DNA of 49,073 bases from Squalus acanthias (GCA_030390025.1 JASTWF010001162.1:62001-111073); one strand, 5' to 3'. Positions 7,635 to 49,073 are shown, counted from the stretch's first letter. Program-made: numbers and translations. Notes: generated by a model not told the origin, from the letters alone.

Positions 7635-7699
7635 GCTGGAACCGGGAGCCGCGGTCCCCGCCGTGTAACTAATGTCCCCCCATCTCACCGAGTCCCGGG

Positions 7700-7727
7700 G
7701 GATTTGATGCTGACTTGAAACACTGTG
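7700..7727 (-). promoter_or_regulatory. 12-bp-spacer RSS of the J segment
   Basis: GGATTTGAT (7700-7708, 6/9 match to GGTTTTTGT) + 12 bp + CACTGTG (7721-7727). Confidence 0.75.
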
Positions 7728-7787
7728 TTTACTGGGGTTATTGTGATTCTGTGGATGGATCCGGGACGGTAGTGACTGTCACAGCAG
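7728..7787 (+). CDS. NAR-TCR J segment (YWGYCDSVDGSGTVVTVTA)
   Basis: Follows an RSS heptamer, carries a G-S-G-T-V-V-T-V J motif like NAR J, and ends in a phase-1 donor G|GTAAGT at 7788. Confidence 0.85.
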
Positions 7788-11478: not shown

Positions 11479-11784
11479 ATTCCAGTTTCTCGGTGTCACA
11501 GGGTCCGCCTCTACAATCCTCTGCTGCCGGTGACACCGTTTCTTTAAGCTGCGAATATTCAGGGTTCTGTCAGCACACAGTACACTGGTACCGTCAGTCC
11601 CCAGGACAGGCTCCGAAATACTTGCTTCAGAGACACACTTCAGGAGAGGGGAATAAAGAAAACGCTGCCGAGGGCCGAATTTCTGCTTCTGTCGATGGTG
11701 CGCAGAAAATCAGCCGCTTAAACATCGCGAAACTGCAACTGAGTGACTCCGCTGTGTATTACTGTGCACTGAGTCCGCGCACAG
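11479..11784 (+). CDS. TRDV: TCR-delta V segment of the NAR-TCR supporting type: intact V exon, no leader found, extra Cys in CDR1
   Basis: Acceptor TTTTAATCCTGCAG| ends at 11478. The exon reads (D)SSFSVSQGPPLQSSAAGDTVSLSCEYSGFCQHTVHWYRQSPGQAPKYLL...LQLSDSAVYYCALSPRT, with canonical Cys, WYRQ and YYC. It is in frame with the upstream J donor and followed by an RSS. Confidence 0.88.
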
Positions 11785-11823
11785 CACAGTGAAACAGAGC
11801 ACGGAGAGAGCCGTCCAAAAACC
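11785..11823 (+). promoter_or_regulatory. 23-bp-spacer RSS of the supporting V-delta; also the first unit of the array
   Basis: CACAGTG (11785-11791) + AAACAGAGCACGGAGAGAGCCGT (23 bp) + CCAAAAACC (11815-11823, 8/9). Confidence 0.95.
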
Positions 11824-14800
11824 TGAACATGGTGGGGATTACACACACACAGTGATACAGAGCACGGAGAGAGTTCACAAACCTGAACATGGTGGGGATT
11901 AGACACACAGTGATACAGAGCACGGAGAGAGTTCACAAACCTGAACATGATGGGGATTACAGACACACAGTGATACAGAGCACGGACAGAGTTCACAAAC
12001 CTGAACATGGTGGGGATTACAGACCCACAGCGATAGAGAGCACGGAGAGAGTTCACAAACCTGAACTTGGTGGGGATTACAGACACACAGTGATACAGAG
12101 CACGGAGAGAGTTCACAAACCTGAACATGGTGGGGATTACACACACACAGTGATAGAGAGCACGGAGAGAGTTCACAAACCTGTACATGGTGGGGATTAC
12201 AGACACACAGTGATAGAGAGCACGGGGAGAGTTCACAAACCTGAACATGATGGGGATTACAGACACACAGTGATACAGAGCACGGAGAGAGTTCACACAC
12301 CTTAACATGGTGAGGATTACAGACAGACAGTGATACAGAGCACAGAGAGAGTTCACAAACCTGAACATGGTGGGGATTACAGACACACAGTGACACAGAG
12401 CACGGACAGAGTTCACAAACCTGAACATGGTGGGGATTACACACACACAGTGATACAGAGCACGGAGAGAGTTCACAAACCTGAACATGGTGGGTATTAC
12501 AGACACACAGCGATAGAGAGCACGGAGAGAGTTCACAAACCTGAACATGGTGGGGATTACAGACACACAGTGATACAGAGCACGGAGAGAGTTCACAAAC
12601 CTGAACATGGTGGGGATTACAGACACACAGTGATAGAGAGCACGGAGAGAGTTCACAAACCTGTACATGGTGGGGATTACAGACACACAGTGATAGAGAG
12701 CACGGAGAGAGTTCACAAACCTGAACAGGATGGGGATTACAGACACACAGTGATACACAGCACGGAGAGAGTTCACACACCTTAACATGGTGAGGATTAC
12801 AGACAGACAGTGATACAGAGCACAGAGAGAGTTCACAAACCTGAACATGGTGGGGATTACAGACACACAGTGACACAGAGCACGGACAGAGTTCACAAAC
12901 CTGAACATGGTGGGGATTACAGACACACAGTGATACAGAGCACGGAGAGAGTTCACAAACCTGAACATGGTGAGGATTACAGACACACAGTGATACAGAG
13001 CACGGGGAGAGTTCACAAACCTGAACATGGTGGGGATTACAGACAAACAGTGACACAGAGCACGGAGAGAGTTCACAATCCTGAACATGGTGGGGATAAC
13101 AGACACACAGTGATACAGAGCACGGAGAGACTTCACAAACCTGAAAATGGTGGGGATTACAGACACACAGTGATACAGAGCACGGGGAGAGTTCACAAAC
13201 CTGAACATGGTGGGGATTACAGACACACAGCGATAGCGAGCACGGAGATAATTCACAAACCTGAACATTGTGGGGATTACAGACACAAAGTGACAGAGAG
13301 CACGGAGAGAGTTCACAAACCTGAACATTGTGGGGATTACAGACACAAAGTGATAGAGAGCACGGAGAGAGTTCACAAACCTCAACATTGTGGGGATTAC
13401 AGATACAGAGCGATAGAGAGCACGGAGAGAGTTCACAAACCTGAACATGGTGAGGATTACAGACACACAGTGATAGAGAGCACGGAGAGAGTTCACAAAC
13501 CTGAACATGGTGGGGATTACAGACACACAGTGATAGAGAGCACGGAGAGAGTTCACAAACCTGAACATGGTGGGGATTACAGACACACAGTGATAGAGAG
13601 CACGGAGAGAGTTCACAAACCTGAACATGGTGGGGATTACAGACACACAGTGATACAGAGCACGGTTAGAGTTCACAAACCTGAACATGGTGGGGATTAC
13701 AGACACACAGTGATACAGAGCACGGAGAGAGTTCCCAAACCTGAACATGGTGGGGATTACAGACACACAGCGATAGAGAGCACGGAGAGAGTTCACAAAC
13801 CTGAACATTGTGGGGATTACAGACACACAGTGATAGAGAGCACGGAGAGAGTTCACAAACCTGAACATGGTGGGGATTACAGACACACAGTGATAGAGAG
13901 CACGGAGAGAGTTCACAAACCTGAACATGGTGAGGATTACAGACACACAGTGATACAGAGCACGGAGAGAGTTCACAAACCTGAACATGGTGGGGATTAC
14001 AGACACACAGTGATAGAGAGCACGGAGAGAGTTCACAAACCTGAACATGGTGGGGATTACAGACACACAGTGATAGAGAGCACGGAGAGAGTTCACAAAC
14101 CTGAACATGGTGGGGATTACAGACACACAGTGATACAGAGCACGGAGAGAGTTCACAAACATGAACATGGTGAGGATTACAGACACACAGTGATACAGAG
14201 CACGGAGAGAGTTCACAAACCTGAACATGGTGAGGATTACAGACACACAGTGATAGAGAGCACGGAGAGAGTTCACAAACCTGAACATGGTGGGGATTAC
14301 AGACACACAGTGATAGAGAGCACGGAGAGAGTTCACAAACCTGAACATGGTGAGGATTACAGACACACAGTGATAGAGAGCACGGAGAGAGTTCACAAAC
14401 CTGAACATGGTGGGGATTACAGACACACAGTGATACAGAGCACGGAGAGAGTTCACAAACCTGAACATGGTGGGGATTACAGACACACAGTGATACAGAG
14501 CACGGAGAGAGTTCACAAACCTGAACATGGTGGGGATTACAGACACACAGTGATACAGAGCACGGAGAGAGTTCACAAACCTGAACATGGTGAGGATTAC
14601 AGACACACAGTGATACAGAGCACGGAGAGAGTTCACAAACCTGAACATGGTGGGGATTACAGACACACAGTGATACAGAGCACGGAGAGAGTTCACAAAC
14701 CTGAACATGGTGGGGATTACAGACACACAGTGATACAGAGCACGGAGAGAGTTCACAAACCTGAACATGGTGAGGATTACAGACACACAGTGATACAGAG

Positions 14801-17800
14801 CACGGAGAGAGTTCACAATCCTGAACATGGTGAGGATTACAGACGCACAGTGATACAGAGCACAGAGAGAGTTCACAAACCTGAACATGGTGGGGATTAC
14901 AGACACACAGTGATAGAGAGCACGGAGAGAGTTCACAAACCTGAACATGGTGGGGATTACAGACACACAGTGATACAGAGCACGGATAGAGTTCACAAAC
15001 CTGAACATGGTGGGGATTACAGACACACAGTGATAGAGAGCCCGGAGAGAGTTCACAAACCTGAACATGGTGAGGATTACCGACAGGCAGTGATACAGAG
15101 CACGGAGAGAGTTCACAAACCTGAGCATGATGTGGATTGCAGACTCACAGTGATAGAGAGCACGGAGAGCGTTCACAAACCTGAACATGGTGGGGATTAC
15201 AGACACACAGCGATACAGAGCACGGAGAGAGTTCACAAACCTGAACATGGTGGGGATTACAGACACACAGTGATAGAGAGCACGGAGAGAGTTCACAAAC
15301 CTGAACATTGTGGGGATTACAGACACAAAGTGATAGAGAGCACGGAGAGAGTTCACAAACCTGAACATGGTGGGGATTACAGACACAAAGTGATAGAGAG
15401 CACGGAGAGAGTTCACAAACCTGAACATTGTGGGGATTACAGACACACAGCGATAGAGAGCACGGAGAGAGTTCACAAACCTGAACATGGTGGGGATTAC
15501 AGACAAACAGTGATACAGAGCACAGAGAGAGTTCACAAACCTGAACATGGTGAGGATTACAGACTCACCGTGATACAGAGCACGGAGAGAGTTCACAAAC
15601 CTGAACATGGTGAGGATTACAGACACACAGTGATAGAGAGCACGCAGAGAGTTCACAAACCTGAAGATGAGCTGGATTACAGACTCACAGTGATACAGAG
15701 CACGGAGAGAGTTCACAAACCTGAACATTGTGTGGATTACAGACTCACGGTGATACAGAGCACGGAGAGAGTTCACAAACCTGAACATGGTCTGGATTAC
15801 AGACTCACAGTGATACAGAGCACGGAGAGAGTTCACAAACCTGAACATGGTGAGGATTACAGACACTCAGTGATACAGAGCACGGAGAGAGTTCACAAAC
15901 CTGAACATGGTGGGGATTACAGACACACAGTGATACAGAGCACAGAGAGAGTTCACAAACCTGAACATGCTGGGGATTACAGACACACAGTGATACAGAG
16001 CACGGAGAGAGTTCACAAACCTGAACATGGTGAGGATTACAGACACACAGTGATACAGAGCATGGAGAGAGTTCACAAACATGAACATGGTGGGGATTAC
16101 AGACACACAGTGATACAGAGCACAGAGAGAGTTCACAAACCTGAACATGGTGGGGATTACAGACACACAGTGATACAGAGCACGGAGAGAGTTCACAAAC
16201 CTGAACATGGTGAGGATTACAGACACACAGTAATACAGAGCACGGAGAGAGTTCACAATCCTGAACATGGTGAGGATTACGGACGCACAGTGATACAGAG
16301 CACGGAGAGAGTTCACAAACCTGAACATGGTGGGGATTACAGACACACAGTGATAGAGAGCACGGAGAGAGTTCACAAACCTGAACATGGTGGGGATTAC
16401 AGACACGCAGTGATAGAGAGCACGGAGAGAGTTCACAAACCTGAACATGATGGGGATTACAGACGCACAGTGATGCAGAGCACGGAGAGAGTTCACAAAC
16501 CTGAACATGATGGGGATTACAGACACACAGTGATACAGAGCACGGAGAGTGTTCGCAATCCTAAACATGGTGGGGATTACAGACTCACAGTGAAACAGAG
16601 CACGGAGAGAGTTCACAAACCTGTACATGGTGAGGATTACAGTCACAGTGATACAGAGCACGGAGAGAGTTCACAAACCTGAACATGGTGAGGATTACAG
16701 ACACACAGTGATACAGAGCACGGAGAGAGTTCACAAACCTGAACATGGTGGGGATTACAGACACACAGTGATACAGAGCACGGAGAGAGTTCACAAACCT
16801 GAACATGGTGGGGATTACAGAGACACAGTGATACAGAGCACGGAGAGAGTTCACAAACCTGAACATGGTGAGGATTACAGACACACAGTGATAGAGAGCA
16901 CGGAGAGAGTTCAGAAACCTGAACATGGTGGGGATTACAGACACACAGTGATAGAGAGCACGGAGAGAGTTCACAAACCTGAACATGGTGGGGATTACAG
17001 ACACACAGTGATAGAGAGCACGGAGAGAGTTCACAAACCTGAACATGGTCGGGATTACAGACACACAGTGATACAGAGCACGGAGAGAGTTCACAAACCT
17101 GAACATGGTGGGGATTACAGACACACAGTGATACAGAGCACGGAGAGAGTTCACAAACCTGAACATGGTGGGGATTACAGACACACAGTGATACAGAGCA
17201 CGGAGAGAGTTCACAAACCTGAACATGGGGGGATTACAGACACACAGTGACAGACAGCACGGAGAGAGTTCACAAACCTGAACATGGTGGGGATTACAGA
17301 CACACAGTGATAGAGAGCACGGTGAGAGTTCACAAACCTAAACATGGTGGGGATTACAGACACACAGTGTTACAGAGCCACGGAGAGAGTTCACAAACCT
17401 GAACATTGTGGGGATTACAGAGACACAGTGATACAGAGCACGGAGAGAGTTCACAAACCTGAACATGGTGGGGATTACAGACACACAGTGATGCAGAGCA
17501 CGGAGAGATTTCACAAACCTGAACATGGTGGGATTACAGACACACAGTGACAGAGCACAGGAGAGAGTTCACAAACCTGAACATGGTGGGGATTACAGAC
17601 ACAGTGATACAGAGCACGGAGAGAGTTCACAGACCTGAACATGGTGGGGATTACAGACACAGTGATACAGAGCACGGAGAGAGTTCACAAATCTTAACAT
17701 GGTGGGGAATACAGAGACACAGTGATACAGAGCACGGAGAGAGTTCACAAACCTGAACATGGTGGGGATTACAGAGACACAGTGATACAGAGCACGGAGA

Positions 17801-20800
17801 GAGTTCACAAACCTGAACATGCTGAGGATTACAGACCACGGAGGGATTTCACAAACCTGAACATGATGGGGATTACAGACACAGAGTGATACAGAGCACG
17901 GAGAGAGTTCACAAATCTAAACATGTTGAGGATTACAGACACAGTGATACAGAGCACGGAGAGAGTTCACAAACCTGAACATGGTGGGGATTACAGACAC
18001 ACAGTGATACAGAGCACGGAGAGAGTTCACAAACCTGAACATGGTGGGGATTACAGACACACAGTGATACAGAGCACGGAGAGAGTTCACAAACCTGAAC
18101 ATGGTGGGGATTACAGACACTCAGTGATACAGAGCACGGAGAGAGTTCAAAAACCTGAACATGGTGAGGATTACAGACACAGTGATACAGAGCACGCAGA
18201 GAGTTTACAAACCTGAACATGGTGAGGATTATAGACACACAGTGAAACAGTGCACGGAGAGAGTTCACAAACCTGAACATGGTGGGAATTACAGACACAC
18301 AGTGATACAGGGCACGGAGAGAGTTCACAAACCTGAACATGGTGGGGATTACAGACACACAGTGATACAGAGCACGGAGAGAGTTCACAAACCTGAACAT
18401 GGTGAGGATTACAGACACACAGTGATAGAGAGCACGGAGAGAGTTCACAAACCTGAACATGGTGGGGATTACAGACACACAGTGATACAGAGCACGGAGA
18501 GAGTTCACAAACCTGAACATGGTGGGGATTACAGACACACAGTGATACAGAGCACGGAGAGAGTTCACAAACCTGAACATGGTGGGGATTACAGACACAC
18601 AGTGATACAGAGCACGGAGAGAGTTCACAAACCTGAACATGGTGGGGATTACAGACACACAGTGATACAGAGCACGGAGAGAGTTCACAAACCTGAACAT
18701 GGTGGGGATTACAGACACACAGTGATAGAGAGCACGGAGAGAGTTCACAAACCTGAACATGGTGGGGATTACAGACACACAGTGATAGAGAGCACGGAGA
18801 GAGTTCACAAACCTGAACATGGTGGGGATTGCAGGCACACAGTGATAGAGAGCACGGAAGAGTTCACAAACCTGTACATGGTGAGGATTACAGTCACAGT
18901 GATACAGAGCACGGAGAGAGTTCACAAACCTGAACATGGTGAGGATTACAGACACACAGTGATACAGAGCACGGAGAGAGTTCACAAACCGGAACATGGT
19001 GGGGTTAATGACACACAGTGATAGAGAGCACGAGAGAGTTCACAAACCTGAACATGGTGGGGATTACAGACACACAGTGATACAGAGCACGGAGAGAGTT
19101 CACAAACCTGAACTTGGTGGGGATTACAGACACAGTGATACAGAGCCCGGAGAGAGTTCACAAACCTGAACATGGTGAGGATTACAGACACACAGTGATA
19201 CAGAGCACGGAGAGAGTTCACAAACCTGAACATGGCCTGGATTACGGACTCACAGTGATACAGAGCACGGAGAGAGTTCACAAACCTGAACATGGTGGGG
19301 ATTACAGACACAGTGATACAGAGCACGGAGAGAGTTCACAAACCTGAACATGGTGAGGATTACAGACACACAGTGATACAGAGCACGGAGAGAGTTCACA
19401 AACCTGAACATGGTGGAGATTACAGACGCACAGTGATACAGAGCACGGAGAGAGTTCACAAACCTGAACATGGTGGGGATTACAGACACACAGTGATACA
19501 GAGCACGGAGAGAGATCACAAACCTGAACATGGTGGGGATTACAGACACACAGCGATAGAGAGCACGGAGAGAGATCACAAACCTGAACATGGTGGGGAT
19601 TAAAGACACACAGTGATAGAGAACACAGAGAGTGTTCACAAACCTGAACATGGTGGGGATTACAGACACACAGTGACACTGAGCACGGAGAGAGTTCACA
19701 AACCTTTACATGGTGGGGATTACAGACACACAGTGATACAGAGCACGGAGAGAGTTCACAAACCTGAACATGGTGAGGATTACAGACACACAGTGATACA
19801 GAGCACGGAGAGAGTTCACAAACCTGAACATGATGGGGATTACAGACACACACAGTGATACAGAGCACGGAGAGAGTTCACAAACTGAACATGGTGAGGA
19901 TTACAGACACACAGTGATTGAGAGCACGGAGAGAGTTCACAAACCTGAACATGGTGGGGATTACAGACACACAGTGATACAGAGCACGGAGAGAGTTCAC
20001 AAACCTGAACATGGTGGGGATTACAGACACAGTGATACAGAGCACGGAGAGAGTTCACAAACCTGAGCATGGTGGGCATTACAGACACAGTGATACAGAG
20101 CACGGAGAGAGTTCACAAACCTGAACATGGTGAGGATTACAGACACACAGTGATACAGAGCACGGAGAGAGTTCACAAACCTGAACATGGTGGAGATTAC
20201 AGACGCACAGTGATACAGAGCACGGAGAGAGTTCACAAACCTGAACATGGTGGGCATTACAGACACAGTGATACAGAGCACGGAGTGAGTTCACAAACCT
20301 GAACATGGTGGGGATTACAGACACACAGTGATACAGAGCAGGGAGAGAGTTCACAAACCTGGACATGGTGGGGATTACAGACAGTGAGACAGAGCACGGA
20401 GAGAGTTCACAAACCTGAACATGGTGAGGATTACAGACTCACAGTGATAGAGAGCACAGAGAGAGTTCACAAACCTGAACATGGTGAGGATTACAGACAC
20501 ACAGTGATACAGAGCACGGAGAGAGTTCACAAACCTGAACATGGCCTGGATTACAGGACTCACAGTGATACAGAGCACGGAGAGAGTTCACAAACCTGAA
20601 CCTGGCCTGGACTACAGCCTCACAGTGATACAGAGCACGGAGAGAGTTCACAAACCTGAACATGGTGAGGATTACAGACACACAGTGATACAGAGCACGG
20701 AGAGAGTTCACAAACCTGAACATGATGGGGATTACAGACACACAGTGATACAGAGCACGGAGAGAGTTCACAAACCTGATCATGGTGAGGATTACAGACA

Positions 20801-23800
20801 CACAGTGATATAGAGCACGGAGAGAGTTCACAAACCTGAACATGGTGGGGATTACAGACACACAGTGATACAGAGCACGGAGAGAGTTCACAAACCTGAA
20901 CATGGGGGGGATTACAGACACACAGTGACAGACAGCACGGAGAGAGTTCACAAACCGGAACATGGTGGGGTTAATGATACACAGTGATAGAGAGCACGAG
21001 AGAGTTCACAAACCTGAACATGGTGGGGATTACAGACACACAGTGATACAGAGCACGGAGAGAGTTCACAAACCTGAATTTGGTGGGGATTACAGACACA
21101 CAGTGATACAGAGCAGGGAGAGAGTTCACAAATCTGGACATGGTGGGGATTACAGACAGTGAGACAGAGCACGGAGAGAGTTCACAAACCTGAACATGGT
21201 GAGGATTACAGACACACAGTGATAGAGAGCACGGAGAGAGTTCACAAACCTGAACATGGTGAGGATTACAGACACACAGTGATACAGAGCACGGAGAGAG
21301 ATCACAAACCTGAACATGGTGGGGATTACAGACACACAGTGATAGAGAGCACGGAGAGAGATCACAAACCTGAACATGGTGGGGATTACAGACACACAGT
21401 GATGCAGAGCACGGAGAGAGTTCACAAACCTGAACATGGTGGGGATTACAGACACACAGTGATACAGAGCACGGAGAGAGTTCACAAACTGAACATGGTG
21501 AGGATTACAGACACACAGTGATACAGAGCACGGAGAGAGTTCACAAACCTGAACATGATGGGGATTACAGACACACACAGTGATACAGAGCACGGAGAGA
21601 GTTCACAAACTGAACATGGTGAGGATTACAGACACACAGTGATTGAGAGCACGGAGAGAGTTCACAAACCTGAACATGGTGGGGATTACAGACACACAGT
21701 GATACAGAGCACGGAGAGAGTTCACAAACCTGAACATGGTGGGGATTACAGACACAGTGATACAGAGCACGGAGAGAGTTCACAAACCTGAACATGGTGA
21801 GGATTACAGACACACAGTGATACAGAGCACGGAGAGAGTTCACAAACCTGAACATGGTGAGGATTACAGACACACAGTGATAGAGAGCACGGAGAGAGTT
21901 CACAAACCTGAACATGGTGGGGATTACAGACACACAGTGATACAGAGCACGGAGAGAGTTCACAAACCTGAACATGGTGGGGATTACAGACACAGTGATA
22001 CAGAGCACGGAGAGAGTTCACAAACCTGAACATGGTGGGGATTACAGACACAGTGATACAGAGCACGGAGAGAGTTCACAAACCTGAACATGGTGAGGAT
22101 TACAGACACACAGTGATAGAGAGCACGGAGAGAGTTCACAAACCTGAACATGGTGAGGATTACAGACACACAGTGATACAGAGCACGGAGAGAGTTCACA
22201 AACCTGAACATGGCCTGGATTACAGACTCACAGTGATACAGAGCACGGAGAGAGTTCACAAACCTGAACCTGGCCTGGACTACAGCCTCACAGTGATACA
22301 GAGCACGGAGAGAGTTCACAAACCTGAACATGGTGAGGATTACAGACACACAGTGATACAGAGCACGGAGAGAGTTCACAAACCTGAACATGGTGGGGAT
22401 TACAGACACACAGTGATACAGAGCACGGAGAGAGTTCACAAACCTGAACATGGTGAGGATTACAGACACACAGTGATATAGAGCACGGAGAGAGTTCACA
22501 AACCTGAACATGGTGGGGATTACAGACACACAGTGATACAGAGCACGGAGAGAGTTCACAAACCTGAACATGGTGGGGTTACAGACACACAGTGATAGAG
22601 AGCACGAGAGAGTTCACAAACCTGAACATGGTGGGGATTACAGACACACAGTGATACAGAGCACGGAGAGAGTTCACAAACCTGAATTTGGTGGGGATTA
22701 CAGACACACAGTGATACAGAGCAGGGAGAGAGTTCACAAATCTGGACATGGTGGGGATTACAGACAGTGAGACAGAGCACGGAGAGAGTTCACAAACCTG
22801 AACATGGTGAGGATTACAGACACACAGTGATAGAGAGCACGGAGAGAGTTCACAAACCTGAACATGGTGAGGATTACAGACACACAGTGATACAGAGCAC
22901 GGAGAGAGATCAGAAACCTGAACATGGTGGGGATTACAGACACACAGCGATAGAGAGCACGGAGAGAGATCACAAACCTGAACATGGTGGGGATTACAGA
23001 CACACAGTGATAGCAGAGCACGGAGAGAGTTCACAAACCTGAACATGGTGGGGATTACAGACACACAGTGACACTGAGCACGGAGAGAGTTCACAAACAT
23101 TTACATGGTGGGGATTACAGACACACAGTGATACAGAGCACGGAGAGAGTTCACAAACCTGAACATGGTGAGGATTACAGACACACAGTGATAGAGAGCA
23201 CGGAGAGAGTTCACAAACCTGAACATGGTGGGGATTACAGACACGCAGTGATACAGAGCACGGAGAGAGTTCACAAACCTGAACATGGTGGGGATTACAG
23301 ACACAGTGATACAGAGCACGGAGAGAGTTCACAAACCTGAACATGGTGAGGATTACAGACACACAGTGATACAGAGCACGGAGAGAGTTCACAAACCTGA
23401 ACATGGTGGAGATTACAGACGCACAGTGATACAGAGCACGGATAGAGTTCACAAACCTGAACATGGTGGGGTTTACAGACACACAGCGATAGAGAGCACG
23501 GAGAGATATCACAAACCTGAACATGGTGGGGATTACAGACACACAGCGATAGAGAGCACGGAGAGAGATCACGAACCTGAACATGGTGGGGATTAAAGAC
23601 ACACAGTGATAGAGAACACAGAGAGTGTTCACAAACCTGAACATGGTGGGGATTACAGACACACAGTGATACAGAGCACGGAGAGAGTTCACAAACCTGA
23701 ACATGATGGGGATTACAGACACACAGTGATACAGAGCACGGAGAGAGTTCACAAACTGAACATGGTGAGGATTACAGACACACAGTGATAGAGAGCACGG

Positions 23801-35800: not shown

Positions 35801-38800
35801 TGGTGAGGATTACAGACACACAGTGATACAGAGCACGGAGAGAGTTCACAAACCTGAACATGGTGGGGATTACAGACACACAGTGATACAGAGCACGGAG
35901 AGAGTTCACAAACCTGAACATGGTGAGGATTACAGACACACAGTGATAGAGAGCACGGAGAGAGTTCACAAACCTGAACATGGTGGGGATTACAGACACA
36001 CAGTGATACAGAGCACGGAGAGAGTTCACAAACCTGAACATGGTGGGGATTACAGACACACAGTGATACAGAGCACGGAGAGAGTTCACAAACCTGAACA
36101 TGGTGAGGATTACAGACACACAGTGATACAGAGCACGGAGAGAGTTCACAAACCTGAACATGGTGGGGATTACAGACACACAGTGATACAGAGCACGGAG
36201 AGAGTTCACAAACCTGAACATGGTGGGGATTACAGACCACAGTGATACAGAGCACGGAGAGAGTTCACAAACCTGAACATGGTGGGGATTACAGACACAC
36301 AGTGATACAGAGCACGGAGAGAGTTCACAAACCTGAACATGGTGGGGATTACAGACACACAGTGATACAGAGCACGGAGAGAGTTCACAAACCTGAACAT
36401 GGTGGGGATTACAGACACACAGTGATACAGAGCACGGAGAGAGTTCACAAACCTGAACATGGTGGGGATTACAGACACACAGTGATACAGAGCACGGAGA
36501 GAGTTCACAAACCTGAACATGGTGAGGATTACAGACACACAGTGATAGAGAGCACGGAGAGAGTTCACAAACCTGAACATGGTGGGGATTACAGACACAC
36601 AGTGATACAGAGCACGGAGAGAGTTCACAAACCTGAACATGGTGGGGATTACAGACACACAGTGATACAGAGCACGGAGAGAGTTCACAAACCTGAACAT
36701 GGTGGGGATTACAGACACACAGTGATACAGAGCACGGAGAGAGTTCACAAACCTGAACATGGTGAGGATTACAGACACACAGTGATACAGAGCACGGAGA
36801 GAGTTCACAAACCTGAACATGGTGGGATTACAGACACACAGTGATACAGAGCACGGAGAGAGTTCACAAACCTGAACATGGTGGGATTACAGACACACAG
36901 TGATACAGAGCACGGAGAGAGTTCACAAACCTGAACATGGTGAGGATTACAGACACACAGTGATACAGAGCACGGAGAGAGTTCACAAACCTGAACATGG
37001 TGAGGATTACAGACACACAGTGATACAGAGCACGGAGAGAGTTCACAAACCTGAACATGGTGGGATTACAGACACACAGTGATACAGAGCACGGAGAGAG
37101 TTCACAAACCTGAACATGGTGGGGATTACAGACACACAGTGATACAGAGCACGGAGAGAGTTCACAAACCTGAACATGGTGGGGATTACAGACACACAGT
37201 GATACAGAGCACGGAGAGAGTTCACAAACCTGAACATGGTGGGGATTACAGACACACAGTGATACAGAGCACGGAGAGAGTTCACAAACCTGAACATGGT
37301 GGGGATTACAGACACACAGTGATACAGAGCACGGAGAGAGTTCACAAACCTGAACATGGTGGGGATTACAGACACACAGTGATACAGAGCACGGAGAGAG
37401 TTCACAAACCTGAACATGGTGAGGATTACAGACACACAGTGATACAGAGCACGGAGAGAGTTCACAAACCTGAACATGGTGGGGATTACAGACACACAGT
37501 GATACAGAGCACGGAGAGAGTTCACAAACCTGAACATGGTGGGATTACAGACACACAGTGATACAGAGCACGGAGAGAGTTCACAAACCTGAACATGGTG
37601 GGATTACAGACACACAGTGATACAGAGCACGGAGAGAGTTCACAAACCTGAACATGGTGGGGATTACAGACACACAGTGATACAGAGCACGGAGAGAGTT
37701 CACAAACCTGAACATGGTGGGATTACAGACACACAGTGATACAGAGCACGGAGAGAGTTCACAAACCTGAACATGGTGGGGATTACAGACACACAGTGAT
37801 ACAGAGCACGGAGAGAGTTCACAAACCTGAACATGGTGGGGATTACAGACACACAGTGATACAGAGCACGGAGAGAGTTCACAAACCTGAACATGGTGGG
37901 GATTACAGACACACAGTGATAGAGAGCACGAGAGAGTTCACAAACCTGAACATGGTGGGGATTACAGACACACAGTGATACAGAGCACGGAGAGAGTTCA
38001 CAAACCTGAACATGGTGGGGATTACAGACACACAGTGATACAGAGCACGGAGAGAGTTCACAAACCTGAACATGGTGGGGATTACAGACACACAGTGATA
38101 CAGAGCACGGAGAGAGTTCACAAACCTGAACATGGTGAGGATTACAGACACACAGTGATACAGAGCACGGAGAGAGTTCACAAACCTGAACATGGTGAGG
38201 ATTACAGACACACAGTGATACAGAGCACGGAGAGAGTTCACAAACCTGAACATGGTGGGGATTACAGACACACAGTGATAGACAGCACGGAGAGAGTTCA
38301 CAAACCTGAACATGGTGGGGTTACAGACACACAGTGATAGAGAGCACGGAGAGAGTTCACAAACCTGAACATGGTGGGGATTACAGACACACAGTGATAC
38401 AGAGCACGGAGAGAGTTCACAAACCTGAACATGGTGGGGATTACAGACACACAGTGATACAGAGCACGGAGAGAGTTCACAAACCTGAACATGGTGGGAT
38501 TACAGACACACAGTGATACAGAGCACGGAGAGAGTTCACAAACCTGAACATGGTGGGGATTACAGACACACAGTGATACAGAGCACGGAGAGAGTTCACA
38601 AACCTGAACATGGTGAGGATTACAGACACACAGTGATAGAGAGCACGGAGAGAGTTCACAAACCTGAACATGGTGGGGATTACAGACACACAGTGATACA
38701 GAGCACGGAGAGAGTTCACAAACCTGAACATGGTGGGGATTACAGACACACAGTGATACAGAGCACGGAGAGAGTTCACAAACCTGAACATGGTGAGGAT

Positions 38801-41800
38801 TACAGACACACAGTGATACAGAGCACGGAGAGAGTTCACAAACCTGAACATGGTGGGATTACAGACACACAGTGATACAGAGCACGGAGAGAGTTCACAA
38901 ACCTGAACATGGTGGGATTACAGACACACAGTGATACAGAGCACGGAGAGAGTTCACAAACCTGAACATGGTGGGGATTACAGACACACAGTGATACAGA
39001 GCACGGAGAGAGTTCACAAACCTGAACATGGTGAGGATTACAGACACACAGTGATACAGAGCACGGAGAGAGTTCACAAACCTGAACATGGTGGGGATTA
39101 CAGACACACAGTGATACAGAGCACGGAGAGAGTTCACAAACCTGAACATGGTGGGATTACAGACACACAGTGATACAGAGCACGGAGAGAGTTCACAAAC
39201 CTGAACATGGTGGGGATTACAGACACACAGTGATAGAGAGCACGGAGAGAGTTCACAAACCTGAACATGGTGGGGATTACAGACACACAGTGATAGAGAG
39301 CACGGAGAGAGTTCACAAACCTGAACATGGTGGGGATTACAGACACACAGTGATACAGAGCACGGAGAGAGTTCACAAACCTGAACATGGTGGGGATTAC
39401 AGACACACAGTGATACAGAGCACGGAGAGAGTTCACAAACCTGAACATGGTGGGATTACAGACACACAGTGATACAGAGCACGGAGAGAGTTCACAAACC
39501 TGAACATGGTGGGGATTACAGACACAGTGATACAGAGCACGGAGAGAGTTCACAAACCTGAACATGGTGGGGATTACAGACACAGTGATACAGAGCACGG
39601 AGAGAGTTCACAAACCTGAACATGGTGAGGATTACAGACACACAGTGATACAGAGCACGGAGAGAGTTCACAAACCTGAACATGGTGGGATTACAGACAC
39701 ACAGTGATACAGAGCACGGAGAGAGTTCACAAACCTGAACATGGTGGGGATTACAGACACACAGTGATACAGAGCACGGAGAGAGTTCACAAACCTGAAC
39801 ATGGTGGGGATTACAGACACACAGTGATACAGAGCACGGAGAGAGTTCACAAACCTGAACATGGTGGGGATTACAGACACACAGTGATACAGAGCACGGA
39901 GAGAGTTCACAAACCTGAACATGGTGGGGATTACAGACACACAGTGATACAGAGCACGGAGAGAGTTCACAAACCTGAACATGGTGGGGATTACAGACAC
40001 ACAGTGATACAGAGCACGGAGAGAGTTCACAAACCTGAACATGGTGAGGATTACAGACACACAGTGATACAGAGCACGGAGAGAGTTCACAAACCTGAAC
40101 ATGGTGGGGATTACAGACACACAGTGATACAGAGCACGGAGAGAGTTCACAAACCTGAACATGGTGGGGATTACAGACACACAGTGATACAGAGCACGGA
40201 GAGAGTTCACAAACCTGAACATGGTGGGGATTACAGACACACAGTGATACAGAGCACGGAGAGAGTTCACAAACCTGAACATGGTGAGGATTACAGACAC
40301 ACAGTGATAGAGAGCACGGAGAGAGTTCACAAACCTGAACATGGTGAGGATTACAGACACACAGTGATACAGAGCACGGAGAGAGTTCACAAACCTGAAC
40401 ATGGTGGGATTACAGACACACAGTGATACAGAGCACGGAGAGAGTTCACAAACCTGAACATGGTGGGGATTACAGACACACAGTGATACAGAGCACGGAG
40501 AGAGTTCACAAACCTGAACATGGTGGGGATTACAGACACACAGTGATACAGAGCACGGAGAGAGTTCACAAACCTGAACATGGTGGGGATTACAGACACA
40601 CAGTGATACAGAGCACGGAGAGAGTTCACAAACCTGAACATGGTGGGATTACAGACACACAGTGATACAGAGCACGGAGAGAGTTCACAAACCTGAACAT
40701 GGTGGGGATTACAGACACACAGTGATACAGAGCACGGAGAGAGTTCACAAACCTGAACATGGTGGGGATTACAGACACACAGTGATACAGAGCACGGAGA
40801 GAGTTCACAAACCTGAACATGGTGGGGATTACAGACACACAGTGATACAGAGCACGGAGAGAGTTCACAAACCTGAACATGGTGGGGATTACAGACACAC
40901 AGTGATACAGAGCACGGAGAGAGTTCACAAACCTGAACATGGTGAGGATTACAGACACACAGTGATACAGAGCACGGAGAGAGTTCACAAACCTGAACAT
41001 GGTGAGGATTACAGACACACAGTGATACAGAGCACGGAGAGAGTTCACAAACCTGAACATGGTGGGGATTACAGACACACAGTGATACAGAGCACGGAGA
41101 GAGTTCACAAACCTGAACATGGTGGGGATTACAGACACACAGTGATACAGAGCACGGAGAGAGTTCACAAACCTGAACATGGTGGGATTACAGACACACA
41201 GTGATACAGAGCACGGAGAGAGTTCACAAACCTGAACATGGTGGGGATTACAGACACACAGTGATACAGAGCACGGAGAGAGTTCACAAACCTGAACATG
41301 GTGAGGATTACAGACACACAGTGATACAGAGCACGGAGAGAGTTCACAAACCTGAACATGGTGGGGATTACAGACACACAGTGATACAGAGCACGGAGAG
41401 AGTTCACAAACCTGAACATGGTGGGGATTACAGACACACAGTGATACAGAGCACGGAGAGAGTTCACAAACCTGAACATGGTGGGATTACAGACACACAG
41501 TGATACAGAGCACGGAGAGAGTTCACAAACCTGAACATGGTGGGGATTACAGACACACAGTGATACAGAGCACGGAGAGAGTTCACAAACCTGAACATGG
41601 TGGGGATTACAGACACACAGTGATAGAGAGCACGGAGAGAGTTCACAAACCTGAACATGGTGGGGATTACAGACACACAGTGATACAGAGCACGGAGAGA
41701 GTTCACAAACCTGAACATGGTGGGATTACAGACACACAGTGATACAGAGCACGGAGAGAGTTCACAAACCTGAACATGGTGGGGATTACAGACACACAGT

Positions 41801-44800
41801 GATACAGAGCACGGAGAGAGTTCACAAACCTGAACATGGTGGGGATTACAGACACACAGTGATACAGAGCACGGAGAGAGTTCACAAACCTGAACATGGT
41901 GAGGATTACAGACACACAGTGATACAGAGCACGGAGAGAGTTCACAAACCTGAACATGGTGGGATTACAGACACACAGTGATACAGAGCACGGAGAGAGT
42001 TCACAAACCTGAACATGGTGGGGATTACAGACACACAGTGATACAGAGCACGGAGAGAGTTCACAAACCTGAACATGGTGGGGATTACAGACACACAGTG
42101 ATACAGAGCACGGAGAGAGTTCACAAACCTGAACATGGTGGGGATTACAGACACACAGTGATACAGAGCACGGAGAGAGTTCACAAACCTGAACATGGTG
42201 GGGATTACAGACACACAGTGATACAGAGCACGGAGAGAGTTCACAAACCTGAACATGGTGGGGATTACAGACACACAGTGATACAGAGCACGGAGAGAGT
42301 TCACAAACCTGAACATGGTGGGGATTACAGACACACAGTGATACAGAGCACGGAGAGAGTTCACAAACCTGAACATGGTGGGGATTACAGACACACAGTG
42401 ATACAGAGCACGGAGAGAGTTCACAAACCTGAACATGGTGAGGATTACAGACACACAGTGATACAGAGCACGGAGAGAGTTCACAAACCTGAACATGGTG
42501 GGGATTACAGACACACAGTGATACAGAGCACGGAGAGAGTTCACAAACCTGAACATGGTGAGGATTACAGACACACAGTGATAGAGAGCACGGAGAGAGT
42601 TCACAAACCTGAACATGGTGAGGATTACAGACACACAGTGATACAGAGCACGGAGAGAGTTCACAAACCTGAACATGGTGGGATTACAGACACACAGTGA
42701 TACAGAGCACGGAGAGAGTTCACAAACCTGAACATGGTGGGGATTACAGACACACAGTGATACAGAGCACGGAGAGAGTTCACAAACCTGAACATGGTGG
42801 GGATTACAGACACACAGTGATACAGAGCACGGAGAGAGTTCACAAACCTGAACATGGTGGGGATTACAGACACAGTGATACAGAGCACGGAGAGAGTTCA
42901 CAAACCTGAACATGGTGGGGATTACAGACACACAGTGATACAGAGCACGGAGAGAGTTCACAAACCTGAACATGGTGGGGATTACAGACACACAGTGATA
43001 GAGAGCACGGAGAGAGTTCACAAACCTGAACATGGTGGGGATTACAGACACACAGTGATACAGAGCACGGAGAGAGTTCACAAACCTGAACATGGTGGGG
43101 ATTACAGACACACAGTGATACAGAGCACGGAGAGAGTTCACAAACCTGAACATGGTGGGGATTACAGACACACAGTGATACAGAGCACGGAGAGAGTTCA
43201 CAAACCTGAACATGGTGAGGATTACAGACACACAGTGATACAGAGCACGGAGAGAGTTCACAAACCTGAACATGGTGGGATTACAGACACACAGTGATAC
43301 AGAGCACGGAGAGAGTTCACAAACCTGAACATGGTGGGGATTACAGACACACAGTGATACAGAGCACGGAGAGAGTTCACAAACCTGAACATGGTGGGGA
43401 TTACAGACACACAGTGATACAGAGCACGGAGAGAGTTCACAAACCTGAACATGGTGAGGATTACAGACACACAGTGATACAGAGCACGGAGAGAGTTCAC
43501 AAACCTGAACATGGTGGGGATTACAGACACACAGTGATACAGAGCACGGAGAGAGTTCACAAACCTGAACATGGTGAGGATTACAGACACACAGTGATAC
43601 AGAGCACGGAGAGAGTTCACAAACCTGAACATGGTGGGGATTACAGACACACAGTGATACAGAGCACGGAGAGAGTTCACAAACCTGAACATGGTGGGGA
43701 TTACAGACACAGTGATACAGAGCACGGAGAGAGTTCACAAACCTGAACATGGTGGGGATTACAGACACAGTGATACAGAGCACGGAGAGAGTTCACAAAC
43801 CTGAACATGGTGGGGATTACAGACACAGTGATACAGAGCACGGAGAGAGTTCACAAACCTGAACATGGTGGGGATTACAGACACACAGTGATACAGAGCA
43901 CGGAGAGAGTTCACAAACCTGAACATGGTGGGATTACAGACACACAGTGATACAGAGCACGGAGAGAGTTCACAAACCTGAACATGGTGGGGATTACAGA
44001 CACACAGTGATACAGAGCACGGAGAGAGTTCACAAACCTGAACATGGTGGGGATTACAGACACACAGTGATACAGAGCACGGAGAGAGTTCACAAACCTG
44101 AACATGGTGGGGATTACAGACACACAGTGATACAGAGCACGGAGAGAGTTCACAAACCTGAACATGGTGGGGATTACAGACACACAGTGATACAGAGCAC
44201 GGAGAGAGTTCACAAACCTGAACATGGTGGGGATTACAGACACACAGTGATACAGAGCACGGAGAGAGTTCACAAACCTGAACATGGTGGGGATTACAGA
44301 CACACAGTGATACAGAGCACGGAGAGAGTTCACAAACCTGAACATGGTGGGGATTACAGACACACAGTGATACAGAGCACGGAGAGAGTTCACAAACCTG
44401 AACATGGTGGGGATTACAGACACACAGTGATACAGAGCACGGAGAGAGTTCACAAACCTGAACATGGTGGGGATTACAGACACACAGTGATACAGAGCAC
44501 GGAGAGAGTTCACAAACCTGAACATGGTGGGGATTACAGACACACAGTGATACAGAGCACGGAGAGAGTTCACAAACCTGAACATGGTGGGGATTACAGA
44601 CACACAGTGATACAGAGCACGGAGAGAGTTCACAAACCTGAACATGGTGGGGATTACAGACACACAGTGATACAGAGCACGGAGAGAGTTCACAAACCTG
44701 AACATGGTGAGGATTACAGACACACAGTGATACAGAGCACGGAGAGAGTTCACAAACCTGAACATGGTGGGGATTACAGACACACAGTGATACAGAGCAC

Positions 44801-47800
44801 GGAGAGAGTTCACAAACCTGAACATGGTGAGGATTACAGACACACAGTGATAGAGAGCACGGAGAGAGTTCACAAACCTGAACATGGTGAGGATTACAGA
44901 CACACAGTGATACAGAGCACGGAGAGAGTTCACAAACCTGAACATGGTGGGATTACAGACACACAGTGATACAGAGCACGGAGAGAGTTCACAAACCTGA
45001 ACATGGTGGGGATTACAGACACACAGTGATACAGAGCACGGAGAGAGTTCACAAACCTGAACATGGTGGGGATTACAGACACACAGTGATACAGAGCACG
45101 GAGAGAGTTCACAAACCTGAACATGGTGGGATTACAGACACACAGTGATACAGAGCACGGAGAGAGTTCACAAACCTGAACATGGTGAGGATTACAGACA
45201 CACAGTGATACAGAGCACGGAGAGAGTTCACAAACCTGAACATGGTGGGGATTACAGACACACAGTGATACAGAGCACGGAGAGAGTTCACAAACCTGAA
45301 CATGGTGGGATTACAGACACACAGTGATACAGAGCACGGAGAGAGTTCACAAACCTGAACATGGTGGGGATTACAGACACACAGTGATACAGAGCACGGA
45401 GAGAGTTCACAAACCTGAACATGGTGGGGATTACAGACACACAGTGATACAGAGCACGGAGAGAGTTCACAAACCTGAACATGGTGAGGATTACAGACAC
45501 ACAGTGATACAGAGCACGGAGAGAGTTCACAAACCTGAACATGGTGAGGATTACAGACACACAGTGATACAGAGCACGGAGAGAGTTCACAAACCTGAAC
45601 ATGGTGGGGATTACAGACACACAGTGATACAGAGCACGGAGAGAGTTCACAAACCTGAACATGGTGGGGATTACAGACACACAGTGATACAGAGCACGGA
45701 GAGAGTTCACAAACCTGAACATGGTGAGGATTACAGACACACAGTGATACAGAGCACGGAGAGAGTTCACAAACCTGAACATGGTGGGGATTACAGACAC
45801 ACAGTGATACAGAGCACGGAGAGAGTTCACAAACCTGAACATGGTGAGGATTACAGACACACAGTGATACAGAGCACGGAGAGAGTTCACAAACCTGAAC
45901 ATGGTGGGGATTACAGACACACAGTGATACAGAGCACGGAGAGAGTTCACAAACCTGAACATGGTGGGGATTACAGACACACAGTGATACAGAGCACGGA
46001 GAGAGTTCACAAACCTGAACATGGTGGGGATTACAGACACACAGTGATACAGAGCACGGAGAGAGTTCACAAACCTGAACATGGTGGGGATTACAGACAC
46101 AGTGATACAGAGCACGGAGAGAGTTCACAAACCTGAACATGGTGGGGATTACAGACACACAGTGATACAGAGCACGGAGAGAGTTCACAAACCTGAACAT
46201 GGTGGGGATTACAGACACACAGTGATACAGAGCACGGAGAGAGTTCACAAACCTGAACATGGTGGGGATTACAGACACACAGTGATACAGAGCACGGAGA
46301 GAGTTCACAAACCTGAACATGGTGGGGATTACAGACACACAGTGATACAGAGCACGGAGAGAGTTCACAAACCTGAACATGGTGGGGATTACAGACACAC
46401 AGTGATACAGAGCACGGAGAGAGTTCACAAACCTGAACATGGTGGGGATTACAGACACACAGTGATACAGAGCACGGAGAGAGTTCACAAACCTGAACAT
46501 GGTGGGATTACAGACACACAGTGATACAGAGCACGGAGAGAGTTCACAAACCTGAACATGGTGGGGATTACAGACACACAGTGATACAGAGCACGGAGAG
46601 AGTTCACAAACCTGAACATGGTGGGGATTACAGACACACAGTGATACAGAGCACGGAGAGAGTTCACAAACCTGAACATGGTGGGATTACAGACACACAG
46701 TGATACAGAGCACGGAGAGAGTTCACAAACCTGAACATGGTGGGGATTACAGACACACAGTGATACAGAGCACGGAGAGAGTTCACAAACCTGAACATGG
46801 TGGGGATTACAGACACACAGTGATACAGAGCACGGAGAGAGTTCACAAACCTGAACATGGTGGGGATTACAGACACACAGTGATACAGAGCACGGAGAGA
46901 GTTCACAAACCTGAACATGGTGGGGATTACAGACACACAGTGATACAGAGCACGGAGAGAGTTCACAAACCTGAACATGGTGGGGATTACAGACACACAG
47001 TGATACAGAGCACGGAGAGAGTTCACAAACCTGAACATGGTGGGGATTACAGACACACAGTGATACAGAGCACGGAGAGAGTTCACAAACCTGAACATGG
47101 TGGGGATTACAGACACACAGTGATACAGAGCACGGAGAGAGTTCACAAACCTGAACATGGTGGGGATTACAGACACACAGTGATACAGAGCACGGAGAGA
47201 GTTCACAAACCTGAACATGGTGGGATTACAGACACACAGTGATACAGAGCACGGAGAGAGTTCACAAACCTGAACATGGTGGGATTACAGACACACAGTG
47301 ATACAGAGCACGGAGAGAGTTCACAAACCTGAACATGGTGGGATTACAGACACACAGTGATACAGAGCACGGAGAGAGTTCACAAACCTGAACATGGTGG
47401 GGATTACAGACACACAGTGATACAGAGCACGGAGAGAGTTCACAAACCTGAACATGGTGGGGATTACAGACACACAGTGATACAGAGCACGGAGAGAGTT
47501 CACAAACCTGAACATGGTGGGGATTACAGACACACAGTGATACAGAGCACGGAGAGAGTTCACAAACCTGAACATGGTGGGATTACAGACACACAGTGAT
47601 ACAGAGCACGGAGAGAGTTCACAAACCTGAACATGGTGGGATTACAGACACACAGTGATACAGAGCACGGAGAGAGTTCACAAACCTGAACATGGTGGGG
47701 ATTACAGACACACAGTGATACAGAGCACGGAGAGAGTTCACAAACCTGAACATGGTGGGGATTACAGACACACAGTGATACAGAGCACGGAGAGAGTTCA

Positions 47801-49073
47801 CAAACCTGAACATGGTGGGGATTACAGACACACAGTGATACAGAGCACGGAGAGAGTTCACAAACCTGAACATGGTGGGGATTACAGACACACAGTGATA
47901 CAGAGCACGGAGAGAGTTCACAAACCTGAACATGGTGGGGATTACAGACACACAGTGATACAGAGCACGGAGAGAGTTCACAAACCTGAACATGGTGGGG
48001 ATTACAGACACACAGTGATACAGAGCACGGAGAGAGTTCACAAACCTGAACATGGTGGGGATTACAGACACACAGTGATACAGAGCACGGAGAGAGTTCA
48101 CAAACCTGAACATGGTGGGGATTACAGACACACAGTGATACAGAGCACGGAGAGAGTTCACAAACCTGAACATGGTGGGGATTACAGACACACAGTGATA
48201 CAGAGCACGGAGAGAGTTCACAAACCTGAACATGGTGGGGATTACAGACACACAGTGATACAGAGCACGGAGAGAGTTCACAAACCTGAACATGGTGAGG
48301 ATTACAGACACACAGTGATACAGAGCACGGAGAGAGTTCACAAACCTGAACATGGTGGGGATTACAGACACACAGTGATACAGAGCACGGAGAGAGTTCA
48401 CAAACCTGAACATGGTGGGGATTACAGACACACAGTGATACAGAGCACGGAGAGAGTTCACAAACCTGAACATGGTGGGATTACAGACACACAGTGATAC
48501 AGAGCACGGAGAGAGTTCACAAACCTGAACATGGTGGGGATTACAGACACACAGTGATACAGAGCACGGAGAGAGTTCACAAACCTGAACATGGTGAGGA
48601 TTACAGACACACAGTGATACAGAGCACGGAGAGAGTTCACAAACCTGAACATGGTGGGATTACAGACACACAGTGATAGAGAGCACGGAGAGAGTTCACA
48701 AACCTGAACATGGTGGGGATTACAGACACACAGTGATACAGAGCACGGAGAGAGTTCACAAACCTGAACATGGTGGGGATTACAGACACACAGTGATACA
48801 GAGCACGGAGAGAGTTCACAAACCTGAACATGGTGGGGATTACAGACACACAGTGATACAGAGCACGGAGAGAGTTCACAAACCTGAACATGGTGGGATT
48901 ACAGACACACAGTGATACAGAGCACGGAGAGAGTTCACAAACCTGAACATGGTGGGGATTACAGACACACAGTGATACAGAGCACGGAGAGAGTTCACAA
49001 ACCTGAACATGGTGGGGATTACAGACACACAGTGATACAGAGCACGGAGAGAGTTCACAAACCTGAACATGGT
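11785..49073 (+). repeat. RSS-derived 60-bp tandem satellite, about 620 head-to-tail copies, continuing past the window end
   Basis: Consensus CACAGTG-ATACAGAGCACGGAGAGAGT-TCACAAACC-TGAACATGGTGGGGATTACAGACA, colinear with the V RSS and its 3' flank. Copy number is estimated as length divided by about 60. Confidence 0.97.

What the first reader, a model, noticed from the sequence alone, without database searches (positions are those of the whole stretch)
11848..49073. Amplified unit is a detuned RSS: spacer 20 bp instead of 23, with an alternative 22-bp register
Seen in sequence: the founder has ...GAGAGAG-CCGT-CCAAAAACC (63-bp first unit), whereas copies have ...GAGAGAG-T-TCACAAACC. This puts a 7/9 nonamer only 20 bp from CACAGTG. 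The CA run before the heptamer gives a second CAC two bases upstream (CACACAG), 22 bp from the nonamer, the same spacing as the RSS at 6587. Units that lost one CA lose this register. Established: spacer length is tolerated only within about 1 bp. Inference: the variant that expanded may bind RAG but cut poorly, which could be why such an array is tolerated.
Basis: partly seen in the sequence, partly recalled or inferred. Interest (0 to 1): 0.75.

Follow-up and report, generated by a model that had tools for sequence, protein, structure and literature searches.

The report
Recombination-signal minisatellite behind shark V genes
Behind every copy of one shark T-cell-receptor V gene, its DNA-cutting signal is repeated head to tail, from 3 to more than 600 times, mostly in a form 3 bases too short; the short copies are likely inert passengers of an ordinary repeat expansion rather than a tuned regulatory device.

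Summary
Observation confirmed. Unit 1 is a 23-bp RSS. Of 624 copies, 606 have a 20-bp spacer and 517 carry the upstream CACACAG. The V is the supporting TCR-delta V of a NAR-TCR cassette. All 19 paralogues carry the same array (3 to at least 625 units), always led by a 23-bp RSS. This array probably exceeds 74 kb. Read-through gene models show the RSS repeat in other sharks too, so it is old.

The short unit is probably a poor signal: 0 of 100 V-adjacent RSSs here have a 20-bp spacer. The 22-bp register is weakly supported: CACACAG scores at least 34-fold below CACAGTG in published assays, and RSS motifs in the copies are not conserved.

'Tolerated because detuned' is unproven. Six paralogues hold extra intact 23-RSSs, another shark has at least five, this cassette is a pseudogene, and neutral models fit or fail depending on the starting array.

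Also found: at least six germline-joined NAR-TCR junctions, and a repeat border at the RAG cut site. These keep a RAG-driven expansion open (about 10%).

The parts
6366..6586 (+). 3' remnant of an IgNAR-like (NAR-TCR) V exon. Leader and 5' part of the exon are missing, a dispersed repeat lies in their place, and there is a 2-bp deletion: a pseudogene
   Evidence: leader found in 18 of 19 cassettes, not here; an intact paralogue matches VNAR structures, best E 1.4e-18
6587..6624 (+). 22-bp-spacer RSS of the NAR V; 22 is the family norm (11 of 12 listed, one 21)
7699..7727 (-). 5' RSS of the NAR-TCR D segment (12/13-bp spacer, weak nonamer)
7728..7787 (+). Germline-fused D-J: the D 3' RSS, the roughly 0.4-kb D-J interval and the J 23-RSS seen in paralogues are gone; splice donor at 7788
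11479..11784 (+). Supporting TCR-delta-type V exon, open frame, extra Cys in CDR1, no leader candidate found between J and V
11785..11847 (+). Unit 1 (63 bp): bona fide 23-RSS (11785-11823) plus a 24-bp tail; homology with the V end stops at the heptamer border
11846..11883 (+). First copy showing both registers: CACACAG at 11846 (22 bp to nonamer) and CACAGTG at 11848 (20 bp)
11848..49073 (+). 624 tandem copies of about 60 bp, none of 23-bp type; runs off the contig end; probably continues as G000:C29:6051815-6089055 (minus, 587 units)

Best explanation
This is a minisatellite built from the V gene's own recombination signal, and its 20-bp-spacer copies are likely near-inert, so the array likely grows and shrinks by ordinary slippage and unequal exchange while only the first signal stays usable. 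Shown: all 19 supporting-V paralogues carry one 23-bp RSS unit followed by mostly 20-bp units and, where closed, a partial unit. Shown: copy number runs from 3 to at least 625, the copies show no motif conservation, and this cassette has lost its NAR V leader. Inferred: the tandem RSS duplication is older than this species, and the 3-bp deletion arose in the second unit before any expansion. Inferred: interior units out-duplicate the edge unit, so the short form came to dominate. Inferred: each copy is at most a weak cryptic RSS. Inferred: this giant expansion costs little because the cassette is already dead.
For: 19 of 19 first units have 23 bp. 0 of 100 V-adjacent RSSs have a 20-bp spacer: 93 have 23, 4 have 22, 2 have 21, 1 has 24 (counted by hand from match lengths). 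No register of the modal unit passes a 4-mismatch rule at exactly 12 or 23 bp; two reach 4 at 22 bp (rule from a PMC11153149 passage). Variant load per column: heptamer 4.3, nonamer 4.6, spacer 4.6, tail 6.3, p=0.61. All 1,386 exact 30-mer matches lie in the V-adjacent arrays or in one orphan 3' half. Sister paralogues differ widely in size (97 against 570+; 17 against 625+). The array has diverged edges and a homogeneous core. The repeat shows in read-through models of Hemiscyllium, Rhincodon and Pristiophorus; in Hemiscyllium the second unit fits the 20-type slightly better (scores 27-44 against 18-39). A neutral model starting from 1+15 units gave a median of 11 internal intact units (observed 11) and 4.3 arrays with one (observed 6). 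The cassette is a pseudogene.
Against: Neutral models starting from 1+1 units over-predict intact copies about tenfold (median 94-162 against 11). Only a few of the 24 parameter sets fit both statistics. The second giant array (C3620) sits behind an upstream NAR module that reads in frame, so a dead cassette is not required for a giant array. The repeat's left border coincides with the RAG cut site. All activity data come from mammalian RAG, and the heptamer data from a 12-RSS. Cross-species evidence is back-inferred from protein, without DNA.
Confidence: 0.62

Rival explanations
1. One reading: long arrays persist only because the amplified unit is a poor RSS. Arrays that amplify the intact 23-bp unit would divert RAG into non-productive joins and be purged.
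For: Only 11 of 1,549 non-first units are 23-type. There are none among the 624, 569 and 587 units of the three giant stretches. Intact extras never exceed 3 per array. Simple neutral models give P(no intact unit in a giant array) of 0.0-0.2 when the first unit is kept.
Against: 6 of 19 paralogues, in at least 3 clades, carry extra intact 23-RSSs, 9 of 11 with a consensus nonamer. P0052 reads as five consecutive 23-type units. Models with a longer ancestor or a heterology penalty give P(none) of 0.15-0.66. The largest array lies on a dead cassette, where such selection is weak. Paralogues are not independent samples.
Confidence: 0.2
2. RAG-driven minisatellite: germline RAG would nick the copies' perfect heptamers without completing cleavage, and nick-initiated homologous repair between misaligned units would drive expansion. 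The first duplication would itself come from a RAG break at the V/heptamer border.
For: Homology between the unit tail and the V end is 0 of the last 11 bases in 18 of 19 paralogues, so the repeat starts at the cut site (3-4 bases further if an indel is allowed). At least six distinct germline V-D, D-J or V-D-J junctions lie within 10 kb of these arrays. RAG nicks initiate homologous recombination and accumulate at some cryptic RSSs (PMC2875030 passages). Germ-cell RAG activity is reported in sharks (PMC2193156 abstract). 584 of 624 heptamers are perfect.
Against: None of 18 closed 3' ends, nor the SINE insertion site in the orphan half, lies at a heptamer border. Intermediate units place exchanges inside the nonamer region. 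The window holds unrelated minisatellites, and earlier notes report arrays of tens of kb from non-RSS seeds in this genome (unchecked). The border argument is post hoc (about 1 in 25 if exact, about 1 in 5 with the ambiguity).
Confidence: 0.1
3. The copies work as usable RSSs through a 22-bp register (CACACAG with TCACAAACC, or CACAGTG with ACAAACCTG). They would act as decoys that tune or delay use of the supporting V.
For: 22-bp spacers are the norm for the neighbouring NAR V (11 of 12). The register exists in 517 of 624 copies. Both 22-bp registers sit at the 4-mismatch limit of a published strong-RSS filter, which is defined for 12 or 23 bp. RAG joins even bare CAC at very low level.
Against: CACACAG has a purine at position 6, disfavoured more than tenfold; at best 0.034% against 1.14%, and CACACAGTG is not listed. 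TCACAAACC, ACAAACCTG, CACAAACCT, CAAACCTGA and AAACCTGAA are absent from a predicted top-1000 nonamer table that lists the genome's real nonamers. The CA is lost or mutated before 84 of 624 heptamers. A join in the array would follow the in-frame stop that overlaps the founder heptamer, so it is non-productive. Copy number varies more than 200-fold.
Confidence: 0.06
4. The giant size is an assembly artefact of a short array.
For: The contig ends inside the array. Homopolymer-type 59-bp units rise distally, and the C3620 array is noisy near its end.
Against: 141 distinct units with recurring rare variants. A separate 37-kb half with 2-3 substitutions per unit, internal SINE copies and the family's 3' flank shares diagnostic variants with this one.
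Confidence: 0.02

Closest known systems
23-bp recombination signal sequence (V(D)J recombination, RAG1/2)
   Same: Unit 1 is a standard 23-RSS; the copies keep a consensus heptamer, a favoured AT spacer start and a 7/9 nonamer.
   Different: The copies have a 20-bp spacer, flank no coding segment and number in the hundreds.
Cryptic or alternative RSSs beside gene segments (murine TRBJ alternative RSSs, PMC6857471; CAC sites in RAG scanning, PMC11153149)
   Same: RSS-like sites next to a true RSS, in the same orientation, possibly cut at low frequency.
   Different: Those are single chance sites; these are tandem duplicates of the gene's own RSS. Use in vivo is untested here.
NAR-TCR cassettes of cartilaginous fish (Criscitiello 2006; seen only as cited in PMC12227049, PMC3457774 and PMC6795676)
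   Same: An IgNAR-like V-D-J lies upstream of a second, TCR-delta-type V; other sharks' gene models fuse the same two domains.
   Different: No RSS repeat and no germline-joined NAR-TCR segments appear in the passages read; the primary papers were not available.
Locus-specific minisatellites (VNTRs) and satellites seeded from functional or mobile DNA (general knowledge, recalled)
   Same: 60-bp unit, variable copy number, interspersed variants, block duplications, diverged edges and a homogeneous core.
   Different: The seed is a recombinase target, and the repeat border falls at the cleavage site.
Germline-joined shark Ig genes (PMC2193156) and the germline-joined supporting V of marsupial TCR-mu (PMC3457774)
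   Same: Precise loss of RSSs and intervening DNA in the inherited genome.
   Different: Here it affects the NAR V-D-J of a TCR locus, in partial (V-D, D-J) and full forms.

Membership tests
Functional 23-RSS (array copies) | Heptamer beginning CAC, near CACAGTG | tested here: met
   584 of 624 copies exact
Functional 23-RSS (array copies) | Spacer 23 +/- 1 bp from that heptamer to a consensus-like nonamer | tested here: not met
   20 bp in 606 of 624; at 22/23/24 bp the nonamer has 4/7/7 mismatches
Functional 23-RSS (array copies) | Flanks a coding segment | tested here: not met
   Upstream of each copy is repeat tail, beyond the V's in-frame stop
Functional 23-RSS (array copies) | Passes RIC scoring | not testable with these tools
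   No RIC model on hand; published assay tables used instead
Functional 23-RSS (array copies) | Bound, nicked, cleaved and joined by RAG | not testable with these tools
   Needs biochemistry or lymphoid junction reads
Functional RSS through the CACACAG 22-bp register | Heptamer with purine-pyrimidine-purine at positions 5-7 | tested here: not met
   CACACAG has C5 and A6; at least 34-fold below CACAGTGAT
Functional RSS through the CACACAG 22-bp register | Register conserved against mutation | tested here: not met
   Upstream CA absent before 84 of 624 heptamers; motif columns not conserved
Functional 23-RSS (unit 1) | CACAGTG, 23 bp, functional nonamer, abutting a V exon | tested here: met
   CCAAAAACC is in the predicted top-1000 nonamer table
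NAR-TCR cassette | IgNAR-like V with its own D and J upstream of a second V | tested here: met
NAR-TCR cassette | Supporting V lacks its own leader and splices from the upstream J (feature recalled) | tested here: inconclusive
   No leader candidate between J and V, and splice phases are compatible; no transcript seen
NAR-TCR cassette | Rearranges to D-delta/J-delta and splices to C-delta | not tested
   D-delta, J-delta and C-delta were not located
Minisatellite / VNTR | Head-to-tail units of 10-100 bp with interspersed variants | tested here: met
Minisatellite / VNTR | Copy number varies between alleles | not testable with these tools
   One assembly only; it varies from 3 to 625+ between paralogues

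The most novel reading that the evidence does not exclude
A RAG-born, RAG-driven satellite. Germline RAG, which has demonstrably joined segments in these very cassettes, seeded the repeat at its own cut site. It keeps nicking the mis-spaced copies without finishing the cut, and nick-triggered homologous repair inflates the array to more than 70 kb inside the TCR-alpha/delta locus.
Probability: 0.1. Interest if true: 0.85.

Novelty: new variant of a known kind. Interest (0 to 1): 0.5.

Why it matters
Even as a neutral repeat it is a natural titration series: 19 near-identical V genes in one genome with 2 to probably more than 1,200 RSS-like copies right behind the true signal, six of them with extra intact signals. 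That makes decoy effects, spacer tolerance and RAG scanning directly testable in a cartilaginous fish by junction sequencing alone. It also explains assembly breaks in this locus and would flood RSS annotation with false sites. If RAG drives the expansion, it would be a case of the recombinase reshaping the germline through repeat instability.

Tried and rejected
Expression and junction reads: no RNA holder listed. Three low-share runs were laid, and one 194-bp contig covered only the V interior; uninformative. Signal-joint pattern in the assembly: 0 matches, with no positive control; uninformative. A pattern to locate D-delta found nothing. Metagenome scan for the unit: 0. No relative genomes are held. 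RIC scoring could not be run. I collected 41 local RSSs for a weight matrix but did not build one: the set is redundant and the lazy pattern mis-registers some. The 'F' flags at C210 unit 189 and at 31 distal C3620 units are parsing or indel noise and were dropped; one search recounts by the CCGT motif. In the flank tree, c10.232 is a long, poorly aligned row and was not used for clade claims. 'Giant arrays sit only on dead cassettes' was rejected: true for the window, but C3620 and C29:8.205 have an in-frame upstream NAR module although their proximal leader donor is lost, and broken cassettes C559 and C29:8.443 have short arrays. 'Dispersed satellite that landed here' was rejected. The long open frames in the array are a by-product of a 60-bp unit; not followed. 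Literature searches for RSS tandem arrays or NAR-TCR RSS detail listed nothing describing this. The library lacks most subscription papers, including Criscitiello 2006 and Ott 2021, so absence from print is not established.

Full report
OBSERVATION. A 60-bp tandem array runs from 11785 to the window end, which is also the contig end. Unit 1 is 63 bp with CACAGTG-23-CCAAAAACC. The copy at 11848 has CACAGTG-20-TCACAAACC. Of 624 copies, 606 have a 20-bp spacer, 584 a perfect heptamer and 549 the exact motif. CACACAG is present in 517, and 36 of 38 units of 58 bp remove it from the next unit. The founder's CC-nonamer and AA spacer start are private to this copy; paralogues have ACAAAAACC (15 of 18) and AT.

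CONTEXT. The V at 11479-11784 is a V-set domain, 60-83% identical to shark and ray gene models; the full-length models I read place it behind an IgNAR-like V. Upstream lie a NAR-type V with a 22-bp RSS, a D and a J. An intact paralogue of that V hits VNAR structures. This matches NAR-TCR as described in passages of PMC12227049, PMC3457774 and PMC6795676; the label 'supporting V without leader' is recalled. The window's cassette is dead: it alone of 19 has no NAR leader (contig searched from base 2001, the first 2 kb), the V's 5' part is missing and it has a 2-bp deletion. Its D and J are already fused.

FAMILY. A protein search found 18 close paralogues and an RSS pattern a nineteenth. All 19 carry the array: 3, 3, 5, 5, 6, 7, 11, 15, 17, 20, 21, 24, 28, 33, 35, 43, 97, 570+ and 625+ units, and unit 1 always has 23 bp. 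Eleven of 1,549 non-first units are 23-type, in 6 paralogues and at least three clades. The 1,386 exact 30-mer matches are all accounted for: 647 forward and 542 reverse in these arrays, and 197 in an orphan 37-kb 3' half at C29:6.05-6.09 Mb, which abuts a 200-N gap and ends in the family's 3' flank. That half shares diagnostic variants with the window (one motif 11 against 5, none elsewhere; 12 shared variant units against at most 4 for any other array), and both flanks hold zinc-finger motifs. The whole array is therefore probably over 74 kb and 1,200 units (inferred). Divergence is 1.8-2.0 substitutions per unit near the V, 0.13 at the contig end, 1.2 beside the gap and 1.9-3.0 beyond.

AGE. 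Gene models that read through the RSS preserve it as peptide. Hemiscyllium models show unit 1, a second unit fitting the 20-type slightly better, and part of a third. Rhincodon and Pristiophorus show the start of a second unit. Unnamed P0052 shows five units of 23-type length. Most of the 65 models stop at the heptamer and say nothing. In three Hemiscyllium models and in Rhincodon the residue over the second heptamer is Gln, which cannot encode CAC, so that copy looks decayed. All of this is back-inference from protein, without DNA.

IS THE UNIT A SIGNAL? Among 100 V-adjacent RSSs found with a pattern allowing 16-25 bp, 93 have 23 bp, 4 have 22, 2 have 21, 1 has 24 and none 20 (hand count; the pattern favours near-consensus signals). 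Tolerance of 23 +/- 1 is stated in PMC212687 (passage). Severe loss at 23-2 and 23-3 comes second-hand from PMC7753069 (passage, loosely worded). Scoring every CAC on both strands, no register has 4 or fewer mismatches at exactly 12 or 23 bp; two have 4 at 22 bp. That assay uses a 12-RSS and mammalian core RAG. In PMC12711392 (abstract, first part of Results, Table S2 rows) the predicted top 1,000 nonamers include six nonamers found at real V genes here, and ACACAAACC, but none of the five offered by the copies. Absence from the top 0.4% is modest evidence. Motif columns are no better conserved than the rest. The 22-bp spacing at 6587 is simply the NAR V norm, and several real V ends also carry CA before the heptamer.

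WAS THE DETUNED FORM SELECTED? For: intact units are rare and absent from 1,780 units in the giant stretches. Neutral models starting from one intact plus one short unit predict a median of 94-162 intact extras against 11, and three of five also predict losses of the first RSS that are not seen. Against: starting from 1+15 units gives a median of 11; extra intact RSSs exist in six paralogues; P0052 reads as an all-23 array; and the largest array is on a pseudogene. The result depends on an unknown ancestral length and on paralogues that are not independent, so the question stays open. The second giant array lies behind an in-frame upstream module, so pseudogene status does not explain every expansion.

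RAG IN THE GERM LINE. Six cassettes have fused V-D-J (five share one junction), five modules have fused V-D (three junction types) and the window has fused D-J. Sharing among paralogues argues for inheritance, as in shark Ig (PMC2193156 abstract). Homology between repeat tail and V end stops at the heptamer. RAG nicks can start homologous recombination (PMC2875030 passages). These points keep a RAG-driven expansion possible. But none of 18 closed array ends is at a heptamer border, and the genome makes large arrays from other seeds (earlier notes, unchecked).

OTHER PAPERS SEEN. PMC10536018, passages; PMC6857471, abstract and passages; PMC11153149, passages. The supplements of the NAR-TCR primary papers were not seen and may show these repeats.

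VERDICT. Real and apparently undescribed within the searches named: an RSS-derived minisatellite of NAR-TCR supporting V genes. The copies are probably near-inert (0.62). Selection for detuning 0.2, RAG-driven growth 0.1, functional 22-bp register 0.06, artefact 0.02. Interest 0.5.

Noticed in passing
window 7728-7787; G000:C29 cassettes at 6.814, 7.901, 8.205, 8.592, 9.029 Mb and C3620 (V-D-J); 7.494, 8.443, 8.829, 9.552 Mb and the C3620 upstream module (V-D): Germline-joined NAR-TCR segments with at least six distinct junctions; four fused V-D-J genes read in frame from an intact leader. Not seen in the NAR-TCR passages read; possibly the more interesting lead.
   Followed up: partly
upstream of 10 cassettes, e.g. 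L091:2850, L107:1580: A V family whose RSS is CACACTG with a 24-bp spacer in every copy seen.
   Followed up: no
G000:C29:7477336 and 8845907; L097:5295: Three V RSSs with 21-bp spacers.
   Followed up: no
G000:C29:6051815-6089055: Orphan 3' half of the array with one SINE insertion duplicated inside a block of about 2.4 kb; contig C210 probably belongs in the adjacent 200-N gap.
   Followed up: partly
G000:C3620:1-34130: Second, separate giant array (570+ units) running off its contig.
   Followed up: partly
terminal partial unit of 15 paralogues, e.g. L064: Ends in a heptamer, about 22 bp and an A/T-rich run that may be an old decayed nonamer.
   Followed up: no
window 1-1202, 1805-2018, 8600-9113: Unrelated 20-bp, 93-bp and 21-bp tandem repeats; the 21-bp one lies in the J-V intron and varies in length among paralogues.
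   Followed up: no
L098/L099 (G000:C559:134500-134950): A deletion fuses the D-J interval to the 3' end of the supporting V, removing J and most of the V but leaving the RSS and a 5-unit array.
   Followed up: no
C3620 and C29:8.205 proximal NAR modules: A shared 2-bp deletion destroys the leader splice donor.
   Followed up: yes
G000:C210:2001-62000: Zinc-finger (HTGEKP) motifs lie upstream of the cassette, with no other V hit.
   Followed up: no
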